Of a stretch of DNA of 64,000 bases, positions 19,168 through 59,653 are shown in pieces; positions within the stretch are counted from its first letter, which is position 1; every line of letters starts with the position of its first letter. Below the pieces are notes generated by a model. That model was given only the letters and a program-made list of their open reading frames with translations. It searched no databases and was not told the DNA's origin. Source of the stretch: Escherichia coli (GTDB taxonomy: Bacteria; Pseudomonadota; Gammaproteobacteria; Enterobacterales; Enterobacteriaceae); NCBI RefSeq assembly GCF_009931435.1, contig NZ_CP043414.1, one strand, 5' to 3'. The position numbers and the translations under genes were made by a program.

Positions 19168-19360
19168 TCACAACCCGAAGATGTTTCTTGCGATTCATCA
19201 TCGTGTTGCGAAAATTTGAGAGACTCACGAACAACTTTCGTTGTTCAGTGTTTCAATTTTCAGCTTGATCCAGATTTTTAAAGAGCAAATATCTCAAACG
19301 TCACCCGAAGATGAGTTTTGAGATATTAAGGCAGGTGACTTTCACTCACAAACCAGCAAG

Positions 19361-23280: not shown

Positions 23281-24570
23281 ATGAAAGTATTAGTCATTGG
23301 TAACGGCGGGCGCGAGCACGCGCTGGCCTGGAAAGCGGCCCAGTCGCCGCTGGTTGAGACTGTTTTTGTTGCTCCGGGTAACGCAGGTACTGCGTTGGAA
23401 CCCACGCTGCAAAACGTCGCTATCGGCGTGACCGATATCCCGGCGCTGCTGGATTTCGCACAAAACGAAAAGATCGATCTGACCATCGTCGGCCCGGAAG
23501 CACCGCTGGTGAAAGGCGTGGTCGATACTTTCCGCGCCGCCGGGCTGAAAATCTTCGGCCCAACCGCAGGTGCCGCGCAACTTGAAGGCTCGAAAGCGTT
23601 TACCAAGGATTTCCTGGCCCGCCATAAGATCCCTACGGCGGAATACCAGAACTTCACCGAGGTCGAACCTGCGCTGGCGTATCTGCGTGAAAAAGGCGCG
23701 CCCATCGTTATTAAAGCTGACGGTCTGGCTGCCGGGAAAGGCGTTATCGTGGCGATGACGCTGGAAGAAGCGGAAGCGGCTGTTCACGATATGCTGGCGG
23801 GCAACGCTTTTGGCGACGCGGGTCATCGCATCGTTATCGAAGAGTTCCTCGATGGCGAAGAAGCGAGCTTTATCGTGATGGTGGACGGCGAGCATGTGCT
23901 GCCGATGGCCACCAGTCAGGACCACAAACGCGTAGGTGATAAAGATACCGGGCCGAACACGGGCGGGATGGGCGCTTACTCCCCTGCACCAGTGGTGACC
24001 GATGAGGTTCATCAGCGCACCATGGAACGTATCATCTGGCCAACCGTGAAAGGCATGGCAGCGGAAGGCAGCACCTACACCGGTTTTCTCTACGCGGGCC
24101 TGATGATCGACAAACAGGGCAATCCGAAGGTTATCGAATTTAACTGCCGCTTTGGCGATCCGGAAACCCAGCCGATTATGCTACGCATGAAGTCCGATCT
24201 GGTTGAGCTTTGCCTGGCGGCCTGTGAAGGTACGCTTGACGAGAAAACGTCCGAGTGGGATGAACGCGCTTCTCTCGGCGTGGTGATGGCTGCGGGTGGA
24301 TATCCGGGCGATTACCGCACCGGCGATGTGATCCACGGCCTGCCGCTGGAAGAAGCGTCTGACGGCAAAGTGTTCCACGCGGGCACAAAACTGGCGGATG
24401 ACGAGCAGGTGGTAACCAGCGGCGGGCGCGTACTGTGCGTCACCGCGCTGGGTCATACCGTGGCAGAAGCGCAGAAACGCGCTTATGCCTTAATGACCAA
24501 TATCCATTGGGACGATTGCTTCTGCCGGAAGGATATCGGCTGGCGCGCCATCGAACGCGAGCAGAACTAA
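23281..24570 (+). CDS. purD: Phosphoribosylamine-glycine ligase PurD (429 aa)
   Basis: ORF 23269..24570 trimmed to MKVLVIGNGGREHALAWK start; ATP-grasp fold; coupled to purH. Confidence 0.96.
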   Translation: MKVLVIGNGGREHALAWKAAQSPLVETVFVAPGNAGTALEPTLQNVAIGVTDIPALLDFAQNEKIDLTIVGPEAPLVKGVVDTFRAAGLKIFGPTAGAAQLEGSKAFTKDFLARHKIPTAEYQNFTEVEPALAYLREKGAPIVIKADGLAAGKGVIVAMTLEEAEAAVHDMLAGNAFGDAGHRIVIEEFLDGEEASFIVMVDGEHVLPMATSQDHKRVGDKDTGPNTGGMGAYSPAPVVTDEVHQRTMERIIWPTVKGMAAEGSTYTGFLYAGLMIDKQGNPKVIEFNCRFGDPETQPIMLRMKSDLVELCLAACEGTLDEKTSEWDERASLGVVMAAGGYPGDYRTGDVIHGLPLEEASDGKVFHAGTKLADDEQVVTSGGRVLCVTALGHTVAEAQKRAYALMTNIHWDDCFCRKDIGWRAIEREQN

Positions 24571-25892
24571 CGCGACAGTTTTGCCAATAGCGTTTTGCGC
24601 GTAATCCCTAACTGACGGGCGGCTTCGGTTTTGTTGCCGCCCGTTTTCTCCAGCGCCGCCAGAATCACTTCTTTTTCGACTTCCACCAGCGGCTGAATAT
24701 CCTGACTTTGCACCAGCGGGATCGGCGTACTGGCAATCGCCAGCGGCAGCTCGCGTTCGGAAATATATTCCCCGGTCAGCAGCACCACCGCCCGTTCCAC
24801 CGCGTTTTCCAGTTCACGAATATTTCCCGGCCAGTCGTAGTGAATCAGCAGATCCATCGCCTGGGGCGTAAACCCTTTTACCGCCTTGCGATTGCGTTCG
24901 GCAAAGCGCTGCAGAAAATGACCAGCCAGCAGAGGAATATCTTCCCGCCGCTGACGCAGCGGCGGTACTTCAATCGCCACCACATTCAGGCGATAGTAGA
25001 GATCCTGGCGAAAACGCCCGGCATTCACCTCAGCGGCAAGATCGCGATGAGTCGCCGCAATCAGCCGGACATCAACCGAGATAGTCTGATTGCTGCCGAC
25101 ACGCTGAACTTCGCGCTCCTGAATCGCACGCAGCAGACGAACCTGCATCATCGGCGAGATATCGCCAATTTCATCGAGAAACAGCGTGCCGCCGTCCGCC
25201 TCAACAAAGCGCCCTTCCCGCCGTTTGTCGGCTCCGGTAAACGCCCCTTTTTCGTGACCGAACAATTCAGATTCCAGTAAGGATTCGTTGAGTGCCGCAC
25301 AGTTGAGCGTTACCAGCGGCTTTTCACTCCGTGCGCTACTGGCGTGAATCGCCCTGGCGACCAGCTCTTTACCGGTGCCGGAATCGCCGTGGATCAGCAC
25401 CGTGGCTTCCGATGGCGCGACGAGGGCAATTTCACTGAGCAGGTGCTGCATCGCCGGGCTTTTACCGACCATACCGAACTGGCTGGCAGACACCGCAGGC
25501 GTTTCAGCATCAACACTGTGCGTATGCGCAAGCGCCTTTTCCAGGGTTGCCTGCAGGTTATCGAAATCCAGCGGCTTGATGAGATAATCCAGCGCCCCGG
25601 TTTTCAACGCCTCTACCGCCGTCTCGACGCTGGAGTACGCGGTCATAATCAGTACCGGAATTGCCGGATTTAACGCTTTGATCTCTTTCAGCGTGGCGAT
25701 GCCATCCATCTCTGCCATTCGCACATCACAAAGCACAAGATCAAAAACCTGTTCCCGCACTTGCTCCAGCGCCTGTCGCCCGCTGTTCGCCAGCGCGACG
25801 TTATAGCCCCAGCCGCGCAGCAATGCCTGCAAGATAGTGCAGTGGCTAATGTCATCATCCACCACCAGAATATCGATATTATCGTGCGTCAT
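24567..25892 (-). CDS. zraR: Sigma54-dependent response regulator ZraR (441 aa)
   Basis: Receiver domain, AAA+ sigma54-activator domain (GESGTGKE, GAFTGA) and C-terminal HTH. Confidence 0.96.
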
Positions 25893-27265
25893 CCTTGTGG
25901 GTCCTTACGCGTAATATTGACCGGAAGCCAGAGGGTGAACGTTGCACCTTTCCCCTCCTGGCTTACGACCTGAATTGTACCACCGTGTTGTTCAACAATA
26001 TTATGCACAACCGCCAGCCCCAGTCCGGTGCCTTCGGCTTTGGTGGTGAAGTACGGGGTGAAGATGGCTTCAAGCTGATCCGCCGCAATTCCCTTACCGC
26101 TGTCGGTTACGCTTATTTTAACGCCTGCGCTGCTTTCGTTGGCCGTCACGCTAATCACGCCATGCTGACCAATAGCCTGAATAGCATTGAGATAGAGATT
26201 CAACAGGACCTGAGTCAGTCGGTCCGGATCGGCCTGTATCTCCGGCAATGCGTCGTTGGCGGTAAAGCGTAATTGGATCTCCCTACTGTTTGCATCCTGG
26301 CTTACCAGTTGTAATGAGTGGTTAATCAGCGTGTTGAGATCCACCGCCTTCAAAGCAAGATGCGTTGGCTTAACCAGCTCCAGCAGCTCGCTTACCACGC
26401 GGTTTAAACGGTCGGCTTCTTTCGCCATCACCTGCGCCAATTGATGCGCTTCTCCTCCTGCTGGTGCGCGTTCGGCAAAATATTTCGCCAGCCCTTTAAT
26501 CGAGGAAAGCGGGTTACGGATTTCATGGGCGACGCCTGCGGCCAGATGTCCCAGCGCCACCAGCTTCTCTTTGCGCTTCATTTCATCCTGTAACAGCTGG
26601 CGCGAGCGAAGATAGCGGCGATACCAGAAGAATGACAACACGCTTGCCAGCAAGACCGTCGCCAGGGCGAAGAGGATAATCAGGGTGTTTCTCTGCTCAC
26701 GCTCTTCGGCACTCACAATGTTACTGGCGTCGAAAGCGATAAAAATTGCTTGTGGTGTCGCGGCATACTGCTGCATATGGCGCATCCGGTGCATTCCAGC
26801 AGCAAACATCGGTTGAAACTGGCGATAAATTTCCAGAACAGGCTCGCCGTCTGCGCTATCGATCCGCCGCCACGCTTCTTCGTCTCCCGGATGTAACTGC
26901 TGCATTTCCTGCGGGGAATAAAGCTGTTTTCCCACCATGCCGGAGTTGCTATGCATCACGATTGTTCCTTGTTCATCCGTGACCGCAAACCAACGCACTC
27001 CTGGCTGCCCAGCCATTTCTTCCAGTAAAGCCTGCTGCTGCGCATGATGCATGCGCATCCCCATACCGACGCGCGAGCCGGATTCGAGAGCGCGGATAAG
27101 TACACTGCCTTTTTCCAGCAGAGTTTGTCTGGCGGCGGCAGTCTCGCGCCCATAATCGCGAATCACGGTCACTGCAAACAACCCCACCAGTCCAACAATG
27201 ACTACGGGAAGGATCGCGCTTAACCATTTTGCTAAGGCATCTTTTGATCGCTGCATAAAACGCAT
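25889..27265 (-). CDS. zraS: Sensor histidine kinase ZraS
   Basis: 458-aa ORF with two TM segments, H-box (HEIRNPL) and HATPase domain; 4-bp overlap with zraR. Confidence 0.93.
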   Translation of the reverse strand: MRFMQRSKDALAKWLSAILPVVIVGLVGLFAVTVIRDYGRETAAARQTLLEKGSVLIRALESGSRVGMGMRMHHAQQQALLEEMAGQPGVRWFAVTDEQGTIVMHSNSGMVGKQLYSPQEMQQLHPGDEEAWRRIDSADGEPVLEIYRQFQPMFAAGMHRMRHMQQYAATPQAIFIAFDASNIVSAEEREQRNTLIILFALATVLLASVLSFFWYRRYLRSRQLLQDEMKRKEKLVALGHLAAGVAHEIRNPLSSIKGLAKYFAERAPAGGEAHQLAQVMAKEADRLNRVVSELLELVKPTHLALKAVDLNTLINHSLQLVSQDANSREIQLRFTANDALPEIQADPDRLTQVLLNLYLNAIQAIGQHGVISVTANESSAGVKISVTDSGKGIAADQLEAIFTPYFTTKAEGTGLGLAVVHNIVEQHGGTIQVVSQEGKGATFTLWLPVNITRKDPQG

Positions 27266-27295
27266 CTTCTTCTTTGCCTGTTCATCCCTTTTTGA

Positions 27296-27312
27296 CAGCA
27301 GAAATCATGCCA
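27296..27312 (-). promoter_or_regulatory. Candidate sigma54 promoter for zraSR
   Basis: Minus-strand TGGCAT-N5-CTGCT (GG/GC spacing as in -24/-12 elements) about 30 nt upstream of the zraS start. Confidence 0.45.
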
Positions 27313-27363
27313 TCTTTTATTAGCACTTACCCTGCGCTTTAACACAAAGGCTTAAGTTTCAAT

Positions 27364-27409
27364 GAGTAAAAATGACTCGCCACACACAGCAGGCGAGTCA
27401 TTTTTACTC
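27364..27409. promoter_or_regulatory. ZraR enhancer: 18-bp perfect inverted repeat between divergent zraSR and zraP
   Basis: GAGTAAAAATGACTCGCC -10 bp- GGCGAGTCATTTTTACTC. Confidence 0.7.
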
Positions 27410-27451
27410 GTTTATCATGTCATATTGCCCGTCATATCAGCGTTTCGCCGT

Positions 27452-27467
27452 TGGCACGAAAGATGCA
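27452..27467 (+). promoter_or_regulatory. Sigma54 promoter of zraP
   Basis: TGGCACGAAAGATGCA (-24 GG / -12 GC) about 40 nt upstream of the zraP ATG. Confidence 0.65.
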
Positions 27468-27502
27468 ATACCCGAAGTAAGACAACCACTGGAGGATTAA
27501 CC

Positions 27503-27922
27503 ATGAAACGGAACACGAAAATTGCCCTGGTGATGATGGCGCTTTCAGCAATGGCGATGGGATCGACATCTGCATTTGCTCACGGCGGACACGGTATGTG
27601 GCAGCAAAATGCCGCGCCTTTGACCAGCGAACAACAGACAGCGTGGCAGAAAATCCATAATGACTTTTACGCTCAAAGCAGCGCACTGCAACAGCAACTG
27701 GTGACGAAGCGTTATGAATACAATGCCCTGTTAGCCGCGAACCCACCGGATAGCAGCAAAATTAACGCGGTCGCCAAAGAGATGGAGAATTTGCGTCAGT
27801 CGTTAGATGAGTTACGGGTGAAACGAGATATTGCGATGGCTGAAGCGGGTATTCCGCGCGGTACCGGAATGGGTTACGGCGGCTGCGGTGGTGGCGGTCA
27901 TATGGGTATGGGCCACTGGTAA
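27503..27922 (+). CDS. zraP: Periplasmic zinc-binding chaperone ZraP (139 aa)
   Basis: ORF 27362..27922 trimmed to MKRNTKIALVMMALSAMAMG (signal peptide) with GGAGG SD; Gly/His/Met-rich C-terminus. Confidence 0.92.
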   Translation: MKRNTKIALVMMALSAMAMGSTSAFAHGGHGMWQQNAAPLTSEQQTAWQKIHNDFYAQSSALQQQLVTKRYEYNALLAANPPDSSKINAVAKEMENLRQSLDELRVKRDIAMAEAGIPRGTGMGYGGCGGGGHMGMGHW

Positions 27923-30404: not shown

Positions 30405-31469
30405 TTAGCGGTGATATTGTTCAGACAACCGATGCACAGCCTCCACAAACACGCCAGCATGTTCTGGCGGCACATCCTGATGAATGCCGTGACCAAGGTT
30501 AAAGACATGACCTTCGCCGTGACCGAAACCTGCAAGTATAGTCGCGACTTCTTCTTCAATGCGGGCAGGTGGCGCGTACAGCATCGACGGATCCATATTA
30601 CCCTGCAGCGCGACTTTATTGCCCACGCGGCGGCGCGCATCGGCGATATCCGTTGTCCAGTCGAGGCCCAGCGCATCGCAACCCGTTTCCGCCATAGCTT
30701 CCAGCCACTGTCCACCGCCTTTGGTAAACAGCGTGACCGGTACGCGGCGACCGTCGTTTTCACGCAGTAAACCATCAACTATTTTATGCATGTAATAGAG
30801 CGAGAACTGTTGATAATCGCGCCCGGTTAGCACGCCGCCCCAGGTGTCGAAAACCATCACTGCCTGAGCACCGGCTTTAATTTGCGCATTCAGATACAGA
30901 GTGACGCTTTTCGCCAGTTTATCGAGTAGCGCGTGCAGCGCCTGCGGCTCGGCATACATCATCTTTTTGATCACGGTGAAGGCTTTGCTGCTGCCACCTT
31001 CCACCATGTAGGTCGCCAGGGTCCACGGGCTGCCGGAAAAACCAATCAGCGGCACTTCGCCTTTCAGTTCGCGGCGAATAGTACGCACCGCGTTCATCAC
31101 GTAACCCAACTCATCTTCCGGGTCCGGAATTGGCAGTTTATCAACATCAGCTTTGCAGGTGACTGGAGAGGTAAAACGTGGGCCTTCTCCGGCTTCAAAA
31201 TAGAGCCCTAACCCCATCGCATCCGGCACGGTGAGGATATCGGAAAAGAGGATCGCCGCATCCAGCGGATAGCGACGCAGCGGTTGCAAAGTCACTTCGC
31301 ACGCCAGCTCTGCATTTTTGCACAGCGACATAAAATCGCCCGCCTGGGCGCGCGTGGCTTTATATTCCGGTAGATAGCGACCCGCCTGGCGCATCATCCA
31401 TACTGGAGTGACATCAACGGGCTGGCGCAGCAGCGCCCGCAGATAACGATCGTTTTTGAGTTCGGTCAT
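30405..31469 (-). CDS. hemE: Uroporphyrinogen decarboxylase HemE (354 aa)
   Basis: [36 protein letters not shown]... Confidence 0.97.
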
Positions 31470-42991: not shown

Positions 42992-45900
42992 TTACTCGTC
43001 TTCCAGTTCGATGTTGATACCCAGCGAACGAATCTCTTTCAACAATACGTTGAAGGATTCTGGCATGCCCGGCTCCATCTGATGGTTGCCGTCCACGATG
43101 TTTTTATACATCTTGGTACGACCGTTCACGTCATCAGACTTAACGGTGAGCATTTCCTGCAGGGTGTATGCTGCGCCGTATGCTTCCAGCGCCCACACTT
43201 CCATCTCCCCGAAACGCTGACCACCGAACTGTGCCTTACCACCCAGCGGCTGCTGAGTAACCAGGCTGTAAGAACCGGTGGAACGCGCGTGCATCTTGTC
43301 GTCGACCAGGTGGTTCAGTTTCAGCATGTACATGTAACCCACGGTTACCGGACGTTCGAACTGTTCACCAGTGCGACCGTCGTACAGGCGGATCTGACCA
43401 GAAGTCGGCAGGTCGCCAAGTTTCAGCAGTTCTTTAATTTCTGCTTCTTTCGCACCGTCGAAGACCGGCGTTGCGATTGGCATACCTTTGCGCAGGTTTT
43501 CAGCCAGACGCATAACTTCTTCATCGCTGAAGGTACTCAGGTCAACTTTCTGACGAACGTCAGCGCCCAGATCGTATGCACGCTGGATGAATTCGCGCAG
43601 TTTCGCGACTTCTTGCTGCTGTTTCAGCATGGCGTTGATCTTGTCGCCGATACCTTTCGCAGCCATACCCAGGTGGGTTTCGAGGATCTGACCGATGTTC
43701 ATACGAGACGGTACGCCCAGCGGGTTCAGTACGATGTCTACCGGCGTACCGTTTTCATCGTAAGGCATATCTTCGATCGGGTTGATCTTAGAAATTACAC
43801 CCTTGTTACCGTGACGACCTGCCATCTTGTCACCAGGCTGGATACGGCGTTTAACCGCCAGATATACCTTAACAATCTTCAGCACGCCCGGTGCCAGATC
43901 GTCGCCCTGGGTGATTTTGCGGCGTTTCGCTTCGAGTTTCTTCTCGAACTCGTGTTTCAGTTCGTCATATTGCTCAGCCAGCTGTTCCAGCTGATTTTGT
44001 TTCTCTTCGTCGGTCAGGCCCAGCTCCAGCCAGCGATCGCGCGGCAGTTTGTCGAGCTTCTCAGCTTCAACGCCACCGGCTACCAGCACAGCACGGATAC
44101 GGCTGAACAGACCCGCTTCGAGGATCTGCAGTTCTTCAGACAGGTCTTTCTTCGCCTGTTTGAGCTGCATTTCTTCGATTTCCAGCGCACGTTTGTCTTT
44201 TTCTACGCCATCGCGAGTAAAGACCTGAACGTCGATAACCGTACCGGATACACCGTTTGGTACACGCAGAGAAGAGTCTTTAACGTCAGACGCTTTCTCA
44301 CCGAAGATCGCACGCAGCAGTTTCTCTTCTGGAGTCAGCTGGGTTTCACCTTTCGGCGTTACCTTACCAACCAGAATGTCGCCACCGGTCACTTCCGCAC
44401 CAATGTAAACGATACCGGATTCATCCAGTTTGGAGAGCGCAGCTTCACCTACGTTCGGGATGTCAGCAGTGATCTCTTCTGGCCCCAGCTTGGTGTCACG
44501 GGACACACATGCCAGTTCCTGAATGTGGATGGTGGTGAAACGGTCTTCCTGAACAACACGCTCGGATACGAGGATGGAGTCTTCGAAGTTGTAACCATTC
44601 CACGGCATGAACGCTACGCGCATGTTCTGACCGAGCGCCAGTTCACCGAGGTCGGTGGACGGACCGTCTGCCAGCACGTCGCCGCGCTCTACCGGTTCAC
44701 CCAGAGACACACACGGCATCTGGTTGATACAGGTGTTCTGGTTAGAACGGGTGTATTTGGTCAGGTTGTAGATGTCGATACCCGCTTCGCCCGGATACAT
44801 CTCGTCTTCGTTAACTTTGATAACGATACGGGAAGCATCCACGTACTGAACGACACCACCACGTTTAGCAACCGCAGTTACACCGGAGTCAACGGCAACA
44901 GCACGTTCCATACCCGTACCAACCAGCGGCTTATCAGCACGCAGAGTCGGAACGGCCTGACGTTGCATGTTCGCACCCATCAATGCACGGTTGGCGTCAT
45001 CGTGTTCAAGGAACGGGATCAGGGACGCACCGACGGATACCACCTGCTGGGTGGATACGTCCATGTAGTCAACCTGGTCGCGGCTGAACAAGCTGGATTC
45101 GCCTTTGCTACGGCAAGTTACCAGGTCTTCTACGAAGTGGCCTTCTTCATCCAGGTTGGAGTTCGCCTGGGCGATAACGTAGTTGCCTTCTTCGATAGCA
45201 GACAGGTAGTGAATTTCGTCGGTTACAACACCGTCGATCACTTTACGGTACGGCGTCTCAAGGAAGCCATATTCGTTAGTCTGTGCGTACACGGACAGGG
45301 AGTTGATCAGACCGATGTTCGGGCCTTCAGGAGTTTCGATTGGACATACGCGACCGTAGTGAGTCGGGTGTACGTCTCGAACTTCGAAGCCTGCACGTTC
45401 ACGGGTCAGACCGCCTGGGCCGAGTGCGGAGATACGACGCTTGTGCGTAATCTCAGACAGCGGGTTGTTCTGGTCCATAAACTGAGACAGCTGGCTGGAA
45501 CCAAAGAACTCTTTCACTGCTGCGGAAATCGGTTTGGCGTTGATCATATCCTGAGGCATCAGGGTATCCAGATCGCCCAGAGACAAACGCTCTTTCACCG
45601 CACGCTCTACACGTACCAGGCCAACGCGGAACTGGTTTTCCGCCATTTCGCCAACGGAACGGATACGACGGTTACCGAGGTGGTCGATATCATCGACTTC
45701 GCCTTTACCGTTACGGATATCGATGAGCTTTTTCATAACATCAATGATGTCGTCTTTGCTCAGGATACCGGAACCTTCGATTTCGTCGCGTAGCAGAGAG
45801 CGGTTGAACTTCATACGACCAACCGCAGACAAGTCATAGCGGTCTTCAGAGAAGAACAGGTTCTCGAACAGGCTTTCAGCGGCTTCACGAGTCGGCGGCT

Positions 45901-47020
45901 CGCCAGGGCGCATCATGCGGTAGATTTCTACCAGTGCGCTCAGACGATCGTTAGTTGGGTCGACACGTAAGGTTTCAGAGATATACGGGCCGTGATCCAG
46001 ATCGTTGGTGAACAGCGTTTCGATACGCTTGTGACCAGACTGGCTCAGCTTAGCCAGCAGATCCAGGCTCAGCTCCATGTTCGCAGCACAGATCAGCTCG
46101 CCGGTAGACTCATCAATATAGTCTTTAGCAACCACTTTACCTGCGATGTACTCAACCGGGACTTCGATCAGTTTGACGTCGTCTTTTTCCAGCTGGCGAA
46201 TGTGGCGCGCAGTAATACGGCGGCCTTTTTCTACGTACACTTTACCGTTAGCTTCGATGTCGAAAGATGCGGTTTCACCACGCAGGCGTTCCGGCACCAG
46301 TTCCATCTGCAGCTTGTTATCACGGATTTCAAAGATAACTTTTTCAAAGAACAGGTCGAGGATCTGCTCTGTGGTGTAGTTCAGGGCACGCAGAATGATG
46401 GTCGCAGGCAGTTTACGGCGACGGTCGATACGTACGAACAGGTTGTCCTTCGGATCGAATTCGAAGTCCAGCCAGGAACCACGGTAAGGGATGATGCGCG
46501 CGTTATACAGCACTTTACCCGAAGAGTGGGTTTTACCTTTGTCGGAGTCAAAGAAGACGCCCGGACTACGGTGCAGCTGGGAAACGATAACACGCTCAGT
46601 ACCGTTGATAACAAAGGTACCGTTGTCCGTCATGAGCGGAATTTCGCCCATGTAGACTTCTTGTTCTTTAATGTCTTTTACGGTGCCTTCCGGCGCTTCG
46701 CGCTCATAGATCACCAGACGCAGTTTAACGCGCAGCGGTGCGGAATAGGTCACGCCACGGATTTGACATTCCTGGACGTCAAACACCGGTTCGCCAAGGC
46801 GGTAGCTGACGTATTGCAGCTCGGAATTACCGCTGTAGCTCTGAATCGGGAATACGGAACGGAAAGCAGCTTCCAGACCATACTGCCCTTCAGGATCTTG
46901 CTCGATAAATTTCTGAAACGAGTCAAGCTGGATAGAAAGGAGATAAGGTACATCCAGAACTTGTGGACGTTTACCAAAATCCTTACGAATACGTTTTTTC
47001 TCGGTATAGGAGTAAACCAT
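42992..47020 (-). CDS. rpoB: RNA polymerase beta subunit RpoB (1342 aa)
   Basis: ORF 42992..47053 trimmed to [35 protein letters not shown] start. Confidence 0.99.
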
Positions 47021-47259
47021 AGGGTTCCTCAGCTCGCTGACAAGTCGACCCATCTGTCCATTGAGCGGACAGTTTGTGCAACACTATTTTGTTGACCGGA
47101 AAATGGAACACTTTCCGCAATGCCTGTTGCTATCACGCTTAAACCATTTCATTGCGATTTACACAGAACGGGCGTCCTGTCGCAGTATATTAAGTCGTCG
47201 ATAGAAACAAGCATTGAAAGGCACAGCAGTAGTCAAACAGTGTGAAACGCTACTGGCGC

Positions 47260-59460: not shown

Positions 59461-59653
59461 TCACAACCCGAAGATGTTTCTTGCGATTCATCATCGTGTT
59501 GCGAAAATTTGAGAGACTCACGAACAACTTTCGTTGTTCAGTGTTTCAATTTTCAGCTTGATCCAGATTTTTAAAGAGCAAATATCTCAAACGTCACCCG
59601 AAGATGAGTTTTGAGATATTAAGGCAGGTGACTTTCACTCACAAACCAGCAAG

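What the first reader, a model, noticed from the sequence alone, without database searches (positions are those of the whole stretch)
27266..27502. zraP / zraSR divergent control region: 18-bp perfect palindromes between two candidate sigma54 promoters
GAGTAAAAATGACTCGCC and its exact reverse complement are separated by 10 bp (27364-27409) and sit between a good sigma54 -24/-12 element for zraP (TGGCACGAAAGATGCA) and a weaker one on the other strand for zraSR (TGGCATGATTTCTGCT). The architecture is as expected for the ZraR enhancer. The perfection of the repeat and the short zraS leader are notable.
Basis: partly seen in the sequence, partly recalled or inferred. Interest (0 to 1): 0.2.

Follow-up and report, generated by a model that had tools for sequence, protein, structure and literature searches.

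The report
Known ZraR enhancer between zraP and zraSR
This is the already characterised control region of the zinc and envelope-stress genes zraP and zraSR, where two binding sites for the activator ZraR sit between two divergent sigma-54 promoters; it is ordinary and correctly recognised.

Summary
Arms 27364-27381 and 27392-27409 are a perfect 18-bp inverted repeat with a 10-bp gap. It is the longest perfect short-gap repeat in the 64-kb window; simulated sequences reach 9-10 bp.

It lies in the 237-bp spacer between zraS (25889-27265, minus strand) and zraP (27503-27922, plus strand). Two sigma-54 -24/-12 elements flank it: PzraP at 27452-27467 (+) and PzraSR at 27312-27297 (-).

All of this is known biology. 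In E. coli K-12 the same two motifs are sigma-54 ChIP-seq peaks, and ZraR binds this spacer by gSELEX and ChIP-exo.

Comparison of 23 Escherichia, Citrobacter and Salmonella sequences changes the picture of the functional unit. It is not an 18-bp palindrome. It is two 17-bp sites, each with its own dyad symmetry: YGRGT-AAAAATG-ACYCR at 27363-27379 and CGAGT-CATTTTT-ACTCG at 27394-27410. They are 14 bp apart, with centres 31 bp apart (about three helical turns).

The 18th base pair is a single substitution in this genome; K-12, O157 and the closest strain have T at 27381. The zraS leader (21 nt) is no shorter in kind than the zraP leader (25 nt).

Verdict: already known, low interest. Minor unexplained extras are a conserved block at 27329-27348 and an 11-bp length difference on the zraP side.

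The parts
24567..25892 (-). zraR: sigma-54-dependent response regulator (enhancer-binding protein) with receiver, AAA+ (GAFTGA loop) and Fis-type HTH domains
   Evidence: ORF. Pfam Response_reg, Sigma54_activat and HTH_8. NCBIfam ZraR equivalog 994 bits against cut-off 760. GAFTGA is visible in the translation.
25889..27265 (-). zraS: sensor histidine kinase, first gene of the zraSR operon
   Evidence: ORF. NCBIfam ZraS equivalog 882 bits against 479. RefSeq annotation of 99.6% identical DNA.
27266..27286 (-). Predicted zraSR 5' leader (21 nt), with predicted +1 at 27286; only a weak purine-rich ribosome-binding region (AAGAAGAAG)
   Evidence: Derived from the -12 GC position. The same 21-nt distance is given for K-12 peak OS39 in PMC4591121. 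The start site itself is predicted, not mapped.
27297..27312 (-). PzraSR sigma-54 -24/-12 element TGGCATGATTTCTGCT
   Evidence: Identical to K-12 ChIP-seq motif OS39. Mean column identity 0.99 across 19 aligned sequences. Present in all 21 related loci.
27329..27348 (.). Conserved block ACCCTG...ACACAAA at -43 to -62 of PzraSR; function unknown, possibly a degenerate IHF-like or architectural site
   Evidence: Mean column identity 0.81 against 0.59-0.67 for its flanks. No ZraR PWM match. A weak IHF-like match at 27345-27357 on the minus strand has 2 mismatches, and 2 or fewer in 13 of 23 sequences.
27363..27379 (.). ZraR site 1 (zraS-proximal): TGAGT-AAAAATG-ACTCG, a 17-bp dyad centred at 27371, which is -85 from PzraSR and -107 from PzraP
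   Evidence: Consensus YGRGTAAAAATGACYCR across 23 sequences. Column identity 0.90. PWM score 32.6 bits.
27380..27393 (.). 14-bp spacer between the two ZraR sites. Its sequence is free but its length is fixed. It contains the C at 27381 that makes the 18th pair in this genome.
   Evidence: Column identity 0.62. Length is 14 bp in 22 of 23 sequences. T at 27381 in K-12, O157 and strain 2013C-4282.
27394..27410 (.). ZraR site 2 (zraP-proximal): CGAGT-CATTTTT-ACTCG, a perfect 5+7+5 dyad centred at 27402, which is -76 from PzraP and -116 from PzraSR
   Evidence: Column identity 0.98. PWM score 33.3 bits.
27364..27409 (.). The reported inverted repeat: 18-bp perfect arms with a 10-bp gap. It arises because site 2 is an inverted copy of site 1.
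27452..27467 (+). PzraP sigma-54 -24/-12 element TGGCACGAAAGATGCA
   Evidence: K-12 ChIP-seq motif OS38 differs at one spacer base. Column identity 0.97. Present in all 21 related loci.
27478..27502 (+). Predicted zraP 5' leader (25 nt), with predicted +1 at 27478 and Shine-Dalgarno GGAGG at 27491-27495
   Evidence: Derived from the -12 GC position. The same 25-nt distance is given in PMC4591121. Leader column identity 0.81.
27503..27922 (+). zraP: periplasmic zinc-binding chaperone and repressor of ZraS signalling
   Evidence: Pfam Metal_resist. NCBIfam ZraP equivalog 279.5 bits against 200.

Best explanation
The region is the shared, bidirectional control region of zraP and zraSR.

Two 17-bp dyad-symmetric sites lie at 27363-27379 and 27394-27410. 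They are 14 bp apart, with centres 31 bp (about three helical turns) apart, so both face the same side of the DNA. Each is inferred to bind a dimer of the enhancer-binding protein ZraR through its C-terminal Fis-type HTH domain.

When ZraS senses periplasmic Zn2+ or Pb2+ or envelope stress, it phosphorylates ZraR. The bound dimers then nucleate the active AAA+ oligomer. This oligomer loops to sigma-54 RNA polymerase, which waits in closed complexes at PzraP (27452-27467, +1 about 27478) and PzraSR (27312-27297, +1 about 27286). ATP hydrolysis drives open-complex formation.

The result is ZraP production and positive autoregulation of zraSR. ZraP feeds back negatively on ZraS.

The long 18-bp 'perfect' inverted repeat is a by-product. 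The second site is an inverted copy of the first, including its asymmetric A5TG core, and one substitution in the spacer of this genome adds the 18th pair.

Status of each step:
- Shown here: anatomy, statistics, conservation, and identity of the three genes.
- Shown in the literature for K-12 and Salmonella orthologues: sigma-54 occupancy of both promoters, sigma-54 and ZraR dependence, and ZraR binding to the spacer.
- Inferred: one dimer per 17-bp site, oligomer assembly, looping, and the exact start sites.
For: - Gene identities.
- The repeat is real and far beyond chance.
- In a 19-sequence alignment of three genera, conservation is concentrated on four islands: PzraSR 0.99, site 1 0.90, site 2 0.98, PzraP 0.97. 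Intervening DNA scores 0.56-0.67.
- Site-to-site spacing is 31 bp in 22 of 23 sequences.
- A PWM built from the 44 sites finds only these two sites in 64 kb, at 33 bits; the next best scores 6.6 bits.
- No sigma-70-like promoter and no terminator in 27200-27560.
- Literature: sigma-54 ChIP-seq peaks OS38 and OS39 on the same motifs (PMC4591121); Salmonella ChIP-chip and sigma-54-dependent expression of zraP and hydHG (PMC3844500); lower expression in an rpoN mutant (PMC2831329); RpoN holoenzyme gSELEX peak in the spacer (PMC8743547); ZraR gSELEX single target with 81 of 86 clones (PMC8249747); ZraR ChIP-exo peaks and a zraR-dependent zinc response (PMC7657598); HydG binding to the intergenic region with a phosphoryl donor (PMC5391612 citing Leonhartsberger 2001).
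- From my own recollection of the Leonhartsberger et al. 2001 abstract (J Mol Biol 307:93; not held in the library): HydG binds 'two inverted repeats separated by a 14 bp spacer'. This matches the anatomy derived here exactly.
Against: - No experiment exists on this particular genome.
- EcoCyc listed both promoters only as 'predicted' in 2015, so the start sites are inferred from the -12 elements.
- The central 7 bp of each site (AAAAATG) is invariant yet asymmetric. A simple symmetric-dimer model does not explain this.
- No convincing IHF site was found to assist looping over only 76-116 bp.
- The published ZraR binding data available here resolve the spacer, not individual sites.
Confidence: 0.93

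Rival explanations
1. The inverted repeat is the operator of another palindrome-binding regulator, instead of or in addition to ZraR. That regulator would modulate both divergent promoters.
For: A 46-bp element with overall two-fold symmetry and an invariant asymmetric core carries more information (about 28 bits per site) than many dimer sites need. The ZraR iModulon is active under phosphate starvation and ethanol as well as zinc (PMC7657598).
Against: ZraR alone selects this spacer from genomic DNA in vitro, in 81 of 86 clones, and binds it in vivo. The 17-bp dyad format and 31-bp spacing are those of NtrC-type enhancers. No other factor is reported at this locus in the papers read.
Confidence: 0.04
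2. The repeat acts as a nucleic-acid structure: an RNA hairpin, terminator or small RNA, or a DNA cruciform.
For: As single-stranded DNA, 27355-27418 folds into a 21-pair hairpin of -20.8 kcal/mol, with z-score -11.6 against shuffles.
Against: It lies upstream of both predicted start sites (-76 to -116), so neither promoter transcribes it. There is no T-run and no terminator call. No Rfam family reaches threshold; the best scores 23.6 bits against a gathering score of 60. In Citrobacter and Salmonella the arms differ at 2 or more positions while each site keeps its own internal symmetry, which is the pattern expected for protein sites, not for a long stem. A 10-nt loop disfavours cruciform extrusion (inference).
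Confidence: 0.01
3. The repeat is a remnant of a mobile or repetitive element (REP, MITE or IS end) that happens to lie between the genes.
For: Long perfect inverted repeats are typical of such elements.
Against: It is single-copy in the window and occurs at a median of one place per genome in 5,195 E. coli genomes. It sits at the orthologous position, with fixed spacing to both promoters, in three genera.
Confidence: 0.01

Closest known systems
E. coli K-12 zraP-zraSR (hydHG) intergenic region with the ZraR (HydG) upstream activating sequence (Leonhartsberger et al. 2001; RegulonDB and EcoCyc entries)
   Same: Same genes, same 237-bp spacer length, identical 17-bp sites, identical PzraSR motif, and the same predicted leaders of 25 and 21 nt.
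   Different: A handful of substitutions in non-conserved positions. These include T to C at 27381, which lengthens the perfect arms from 17 to 18 bp, and G to A in the PzraP spacer at 27459. None touches a conserved position.
NtrC enhancer at glnAp2 (two strong 17-bp dyad sites about three helical turns apart, upstream of a sigma-54 promoter; own knowledge)
   Same: Two 17-bp dyad-symmetric sites for a response-regulator enhancer-binding protein, with centres about 31-32 bp apart, roughly 100 bp upstream of a -24/-12 promoter.
   Different: The half-sites differ (CGAGT/ACTCG against TGCACC/GGTGCA). The core is an invariant A5 tract. A single enhancer serves two divergent sigma-54 promoters. 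No weak accessory sites were detected.
Other enhancers at divergently transcribed loci: FhlA sites between hyc and hyp, and the three NorR sites between norR and norVW (PMC2831303)
   Same: Enhancer-binding-protein sites placed inside a divergent intergenic region, with autoregulation of the regulator operon.
   Different: The norR-norVW region needs three sites and an IHF site, and only norVW is sigma-54 dependent. Here there are two sites, both promoters are sigma-54 dependent, and no clear IHF consensus is present.

Membership tests
sigma-54 (-24/-12) promoter | GG and GC dinucleotides with the canonical spacing (TGGCAC-N5-TTGCW) | tested here: met
   PzraP TGGCACGAAAGATGCA has 1 mismatch and PzraSR TGGCATGATTTCTGCT has 2 mismatches. 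In both, GG to GC is 12 nt start-to-start.
sigma-54 (-24/-12) promoter | Correct orientation and a short distance to the start of a gene | tested here: met
   Each motif points at its gene. Predicted leaders are 25 nt (zraP) and 21 nt (zraS).
sigma-54 (-24/-12) promoter | Conservation of the element in orthologous regions | tested here: met
   Both elements are present in all 21 related loci. Column identity is 0.97-0.99.
sigma-54 (-24/-12) promoter | Occupancy by sigma-54 holoenzyme and rpoN-dependent expression | not testable with these tools
   Published for the orthologues: ChIP-seq OS38 and OS39 in K-12, ChIP-chip and microarray in Salmonella, rpoN mutant array, gSELEX.
sigma-54 (-24/-12) promoter | Mapped transcription start about 12 nt downstream of the GC | not testable with these tools
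   EcoCyc status was 'predicted' for both promoters in PMC4591121. No start-site data were found in the held library.
NtrC-type enhancer (UAS) for an enhancer-binding protein | A cognate enhancer-binding protein with AAA+ sigma-54 interaction domain (GAFTGA) and DNA-binding HTH is encoded at the locus | tested here: met
   ZraR has Response_reg, Sigma54_activat and HTH_8 domains, meets the ZraR equivalog cut-off, and shows GAFTGA in its translation.
NtrC-type enhancer (UAS) for an enhancer-binding protein | Two or more dyad-symmetric sites, in helical phase, about 70-150 bp upstream of the promoter | tested here: met
   Two 17-bp dyads with centres 31 bp apart, at -76/-107 from PzraP and -85/-116 from PzraSR.
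NtrC-type enhancer (UAS) for an enhancer-binding protein | Sites and their spacing conserved while the spacer sequence drifts | tested here: met
   Sites score 0.90 and 0.98 against 0.62 for the spacer. The spacer is 14 bp in 22 of 23 sequences.
NtrC-type enhancer (UAS) for an enhancer-binding protein | Direct binding of the protein to these sites | not testable with these tools
   ZraR binds the spacer by gSELEX and ChIP-exo. Site-level data are in Leonhartsberger 2001, which is not held and is cited from memory.
NtrC-type enhancer (UAS) for an enhancer-binding protein | IHF site between enhancer and promoter (frequent but not obligatory) | tested here: inconclusive
   No WATCAANNNNTTR match with 1 mismatch or fewer in the window. 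A degenerate, positionally shared match lies on the zraSR side only.
Intrinsic terminator or structured RNA | G+C-rich stem followed by a T-run, or a match to an RNA family | tested here: not met
   No terminator call. No Rfam match near the gathering score.

The most novel reading that the evidence does not exclude
The shared enhancer may be tuned differently for its two promoters. Three features suggest this. On the zraSR side there is a conserved 20-bp block (27329-27348) with a degenerate IHF-like match. On the zraP side the sequence is free, but its length differs by exactly one helical turn (11 bp) between Escherichia and Citrobacter/Salmonella. The two sites also keep their asymmetric A5 cores in mirror-image orientation. 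Together these would mean that an architectural factor and DNA geometry, not only promoter strength, partition one ZraR oligomer between zraP and zraSR.
Probability: 0.2. Interest if true: 0.3.

Novelty: already known. Interest (0 to 1): 0.08.

Why it matters
The finding matters little beyond correct annotation. The region is the textbook ZraR-dependent control region, and PzraP is already used in zinc and lead biosensors.

The cross-genus comparison adds a sharper site definition: YGRGT-AAAAATG-ACYCR, twice, 14 bp apart. It also adds the phase-preserving 11-bp length difference and one unexplained conserved block. These could guide the design of minimal PzraP parts or experiments on how one enhancer serves two promoters.

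Tried and rejected
- Third, weaker ZraR site. This was prompted by the weak NtrC sites at glnAp2 and the three NorR sites. A PWM from 44 sites found nothing above 0 bits elsewhere in the spacer and nothing above 6.6 bits in 64 kb.
- IHF site. There is no match with 1 mismatch or fewer in the window or in most species. Only a degenerate, positionally shared match exists at 27345-27357, so this stays a hypothesis.
- Compensatory change within site 1. GAGT/ACTC in Escherichia against GGGT/ACCC in most Citrobacter looked like covariation. However, mixed forms occur: GAGT/ACCC in three Citrobacter and GGGT/ACTC in Salmonella. The positions are simply R and Y.
- RNA element, terminator or sigma-70 promoter. 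All negative.
- Upstream extension of zraP. The ORF 27362-27922 that runs through the enhancer is an artefact of mechanical ORF calling. The 11-bp indel in other genera breaks its frame.
- Primary paper. Leonhartsberger 2001 is not held, and no held paper quotes its site-level result. The supplements of the ChIP-exo atlas PMC9104697 are not held.
- Deeper taxa. Klebsiella, Enterobacter and more distant genera were not reached. The single-protein scan returned only Escherichia, Citrobacter and Salmonella. I judged a 13-CPU-hour protein search not worth the cost for a known element.

Full report
**1. The observation**

Reading 26700-27800 shows GAGTAAAAATGACTCGCC at 27364-27381 and its exact reverse complement at 27392-27409, 10 bp apart. 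The repeat finder extends this to 21-nt arms with one mismatch, 27361-27381 and 27392-27412.

Among inverted repeats in the whole window with arms of at least 15 nt and no more than 40 nt apart, this is the only one with a real gap between long arms. The other six reported have overlapping arms or a 2-nt gap. It is also the longest perfect short-gap inverted repeat in the 64 kb. Markov-1 simulations reach only 9-10 bp, and the naive expectation for 18 bp is about 2e-5.

The two proposed sigma-54 elements are at 27452-27467 (+) and 27312-27297 (-). A loose consensus is not enriched in the window, with 41 matches against 39 expected. The stricter TGGCA[CT]N6TGC[AT] occurs three times against about 0.8 expected, and two of the three are these divergent sites. 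The only correction is that it is one inverted repeat, not several palindromes.

**2. Context**

The stated interval 27266-27502 is exactly the spacer between two genes: a 458-aa ORF on the minus strand (25889-27265) and a 139-aa ORF on the plus strand (27503-27922). A 441-aa ORF (24567-25892, minus) lies downstream of the first.

These three proteins meet the NCBIfam equivalog cut-offs for ZraS, ZraP and ZraR. ZraR has receiver, sigma-54-interaction and Fis-type HTH domains, and GAFTGA is visible in its translation.

The DNA matches 5,420 of 5,426 complete E. coli genomes, where it is annotated zraS and zraP. The gene order purD-zraR-zraS / zraP-yjaH-hupA-yjaG-nfi-hemE is the E. coli one. The spacer is 237 bp, as in K-12.

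**3. What is already known about this region**

For K-12, Bonocora et al. list sigma-54 ChIP-seq peaks OS38 and OS39:
- OS38: TTGGCACGGAAGATGCA, zraP, predicted start 25 bp from the gene, occupancy score (fold above threshold) 39.
- OS39: ATGGCATGATTTCTGCT, zraS, 21 bp, occupancy score 9.

At that time EcoCyc marked both promoters as 'predicted' (PMC4591121).

Applying their rule (start 19 bp downstream of the motif centre) to the window gives +1 at 27478 for zraP and 27286 for zraS. The leaders are then 25 and 21 nt.

Further published support:
- In Salmonella both promoters are bound in ChIP-chip and are induced by a promiscuous activator (PMC3844500).
- Both genes fall in an rpoN mutant (PMC2831329).
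- RpoN holoenzyme selects the spacer in gSELEX (PMC8743547).
- ZraR selects essentially only this spacer from genomic DNA, in 81 of 86 clones (PMC8249747).
- ZraR gives ChIP-exo peaks upstream of zraP and zraSR, with a zraR-dependent zinc response (PMC7657598).

The primary paper (Leonhartsberger et al. 2001, J Mol Biol 307:93) is not held. From memory, its abstract describes the binding region as two inverted repeats separated by a 14-bp spacer.

**4. What the functional unit is**

I fetched zraP loci from 21 species genomes: 5 Escherichia, 15 Citrobacter and 1 Salmonella. I aligned the control regions, measured the geometry and computed per-column conservation.

Conservation is concentrated in four islands:

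| Element | Mean column identity |
|---|---|
| PzraSR motif | 0.99 |
| Site at 27363-27379 | 0.90 |
| Site at 27394-27410 | 0.98 |
| PzraP motif | 0.97 |
| Spacer between the sites | 0.62 |
| Other intervening DNA | 0.56-0.67 |

Each site is a 17-mer with its own dyad symmetry. The right site is CGAGT-CATTTTT-ACTCG. The left site is TGAGT-AAAAATG-ACTCG in Escherichia and mostly CGGGT-AAAAATG-ACCCG in Citrobacter.

The sites are 14 bp apart in 22 of 23 sequences, so their centres are 31 bp apart (about three helical turns). This is the format of NtrC-type enhancers (own knowledge), and it matches the recalled 14-bp spacer.

The long inverted repeat exists because the second site is an inverted copy of the first, including the asymmetric A5TG core. 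In Citrobacter and Salmonella the two arms differ at two or more positions. The long perfect stem is therefore not what is conserved.

A PWM from the 44 sites scores the two window sites at 33.3 and 32.6 bits, and nothing else in 64 kb scores above 6.6 bits. There is no third, weaker site in the spacer.

**5.

*Perfection of the repeat.* K-12, O157:H7 and even the closest strain (2013C-4282, 99.5% identical) carry T at the position of 27381. This gives 17-bp perfect arms and a 12-bp gap. No complete E. coli genome among 5,195 matches has the window's exact 66-mer; the best is 98.5%, which is one mismatch. The 18th pair is therefore a single substitution in the non-conserved spacer.

*Short zraS leader.* At 21 nt it is close to zraP's 25 nt and lies within the 21-73 nt range of the promoters visible in the quoted part of that table. 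zraP has a strong GGAGG ribosome-binding sequence at 27491-27495, whereas zraS has only a purine-rich AAGAAG.

*The 'weaker' zraSR promoter.* This is consistent with lower sigma-54 occupancy: 9 against 39 in E. coli, and 4.8 against 29 in Salmonella. The motif scores are similar, at 11.4 against 12.3 in E. coli, and reversed in Salmonella at 20.1 against 17.4.

**6. Rival explanations**

*Hairpin or terminator.* As single-stranded DNA the region would form a -20.8 kcal/mol hairpin. However, it lies upstream of both predicted starts and has no T-run. It matches no Rfam family; the best scores 23.6 bits against a gathering score of 60. Its arms drift apart in other genera while each site keeps its own symmetry.

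*Repetitive or mobile element.* This is excluded by single-copy status and by orthologous placement in three genera.

*A second regulator using the same sites.* This cannot be excluded, but it has no direct support.

**7. Mechanism**

ZraS senses zinc, lead or envelope stress and phosphorylates ZraR. ZraR dimers at the two same-face sites nucleate the AAA+ oligomer. This loops to sigma-54 holoenzyme at PzraP (site centres at -76 and -107) and at PzraSR (-85 and -116), and ATP hydrolysis opens the promoters. ZraP accumulates and damps ZraS, and zraSR is positively autoregulated.

The anatomy, conservation and gene identities are shown here. Sigma-54 and ZraR occupancy and dependence are shown in the literature for the orthologues. 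Dimer-per-site stoichiometry, looping and the exact start sites are inferred.

**8. Loose ends**

- *Conserved block.* A block at 27329-27348 (ACCCTG...ACACAAA; identity 0.81) lies at -43 to -62 of PzraSR and has no counterpart on the zraP side. It is not a ZraR site. The IHF consensus is absent at 1 mismatch or fewer. A degenerate minus-strand match at 27345-27357 is positionally shared, with 2 or fewer mismatches in 13 of 23 sequences.
- *Length difference.* Between site 2 and PzraP, Escherichia is 11 bp shorter than Citrobacter and Salmonella (76/107 against 87/118). That is one helical turn in otherwise unconserved DNA, so helical phase is preserved.
- *Invariant asymmetric core.* The AAAAATG cores and their mirror-image arrangement are not explained by a simple symmetric-dimer model.

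**9. Verdict**

The modest added value is a sharper, cross-genus definition of the enhancer and the demonstration that the 'perfection' is incidental.

Noticed in passing
window 25889-27265 (zraS), especially codons 40-190 (about 26690-27150): The periplasmic sensor part of ZraS occurs in two divergent forms within E. coli. The window and O157:H7 share a 458-aa form and are 98% identical to each other. K-12 has a 465-aa form that is only 71% identical over residues 1-225, with a 7-aa indel, while the transmembrane segments and the control region are the same. Only 4,182 of 5,420 complete genomes align over at least 80% of the window's zraS.
   Followed up: partly
window 30405-31469 (hemE) compared with 25889-27265 (zraS): The source genome is not a mainstream E. 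coli. hemE is at best 97.7% identical to any of 5,420 complete E. coli genomes. zraS is 99.5-99.6% identical to the best-matching of the 18 genomes at 99% or more. The 7-kb neighbourhood is 98.2% identical to strain 2013C-4282, 96.4% to O157 and 93-95% to other Escherichia species. This suggests a divergent Escherichia lineage or a mosaic region.
   Followed up: partly
window 27329-27348: A conserved block, ACCCTG...ACACAAA, lies at -43 to -62 of the predicted zraSR start and has no assigned function. It overlaps a degenerate IHF-like match at 27345-27357 on the minus strand.
   Followed up: partly
window 27411-27451; loci L009-L024 at the equivalent position: Between the zraP-proximal ZraR site and PzraP, Escherichia is 11 bp (one helical turn) shorter than Citrobacter and Salmonella, in DNA that is otherwise not conserved.
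   Followed up: partly
window 43881-43896 (-): A third strict sigma-54-like motif, TGGCACCGGGCGTGCT, lies in sense orientation inside a 1353-aa ORF (42992-47053, minus strand). It is absent from the E. coli sigma-54 ChIP-seq tables of PMC4591121, so it is probably a chance match.
   Followed up: partly
window 19331-19349 and 59624-59642: An identical 19-mer occurs twice, about 40.3 kb apart; it turned up as a weak PWM hit. This is consistent with two copies of a long repeat flanking the region, probably rRNA operons given the E. coli gene order. I did not check this (see also the duplicated motif hits).
   Followed up: no
window 27362-27922 (+); hit H5 (NZ_CP103468.1): Mechanical ORF calling extends zraP 47 codons upstream through the enhancer and PzraP. 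One RefSeq genome annotates a 'hypothetical protein' within the stretch matched by the 437-bp query that spans the spacer. Any such call inside the spacer is likely an artefact.
   Followed up: no
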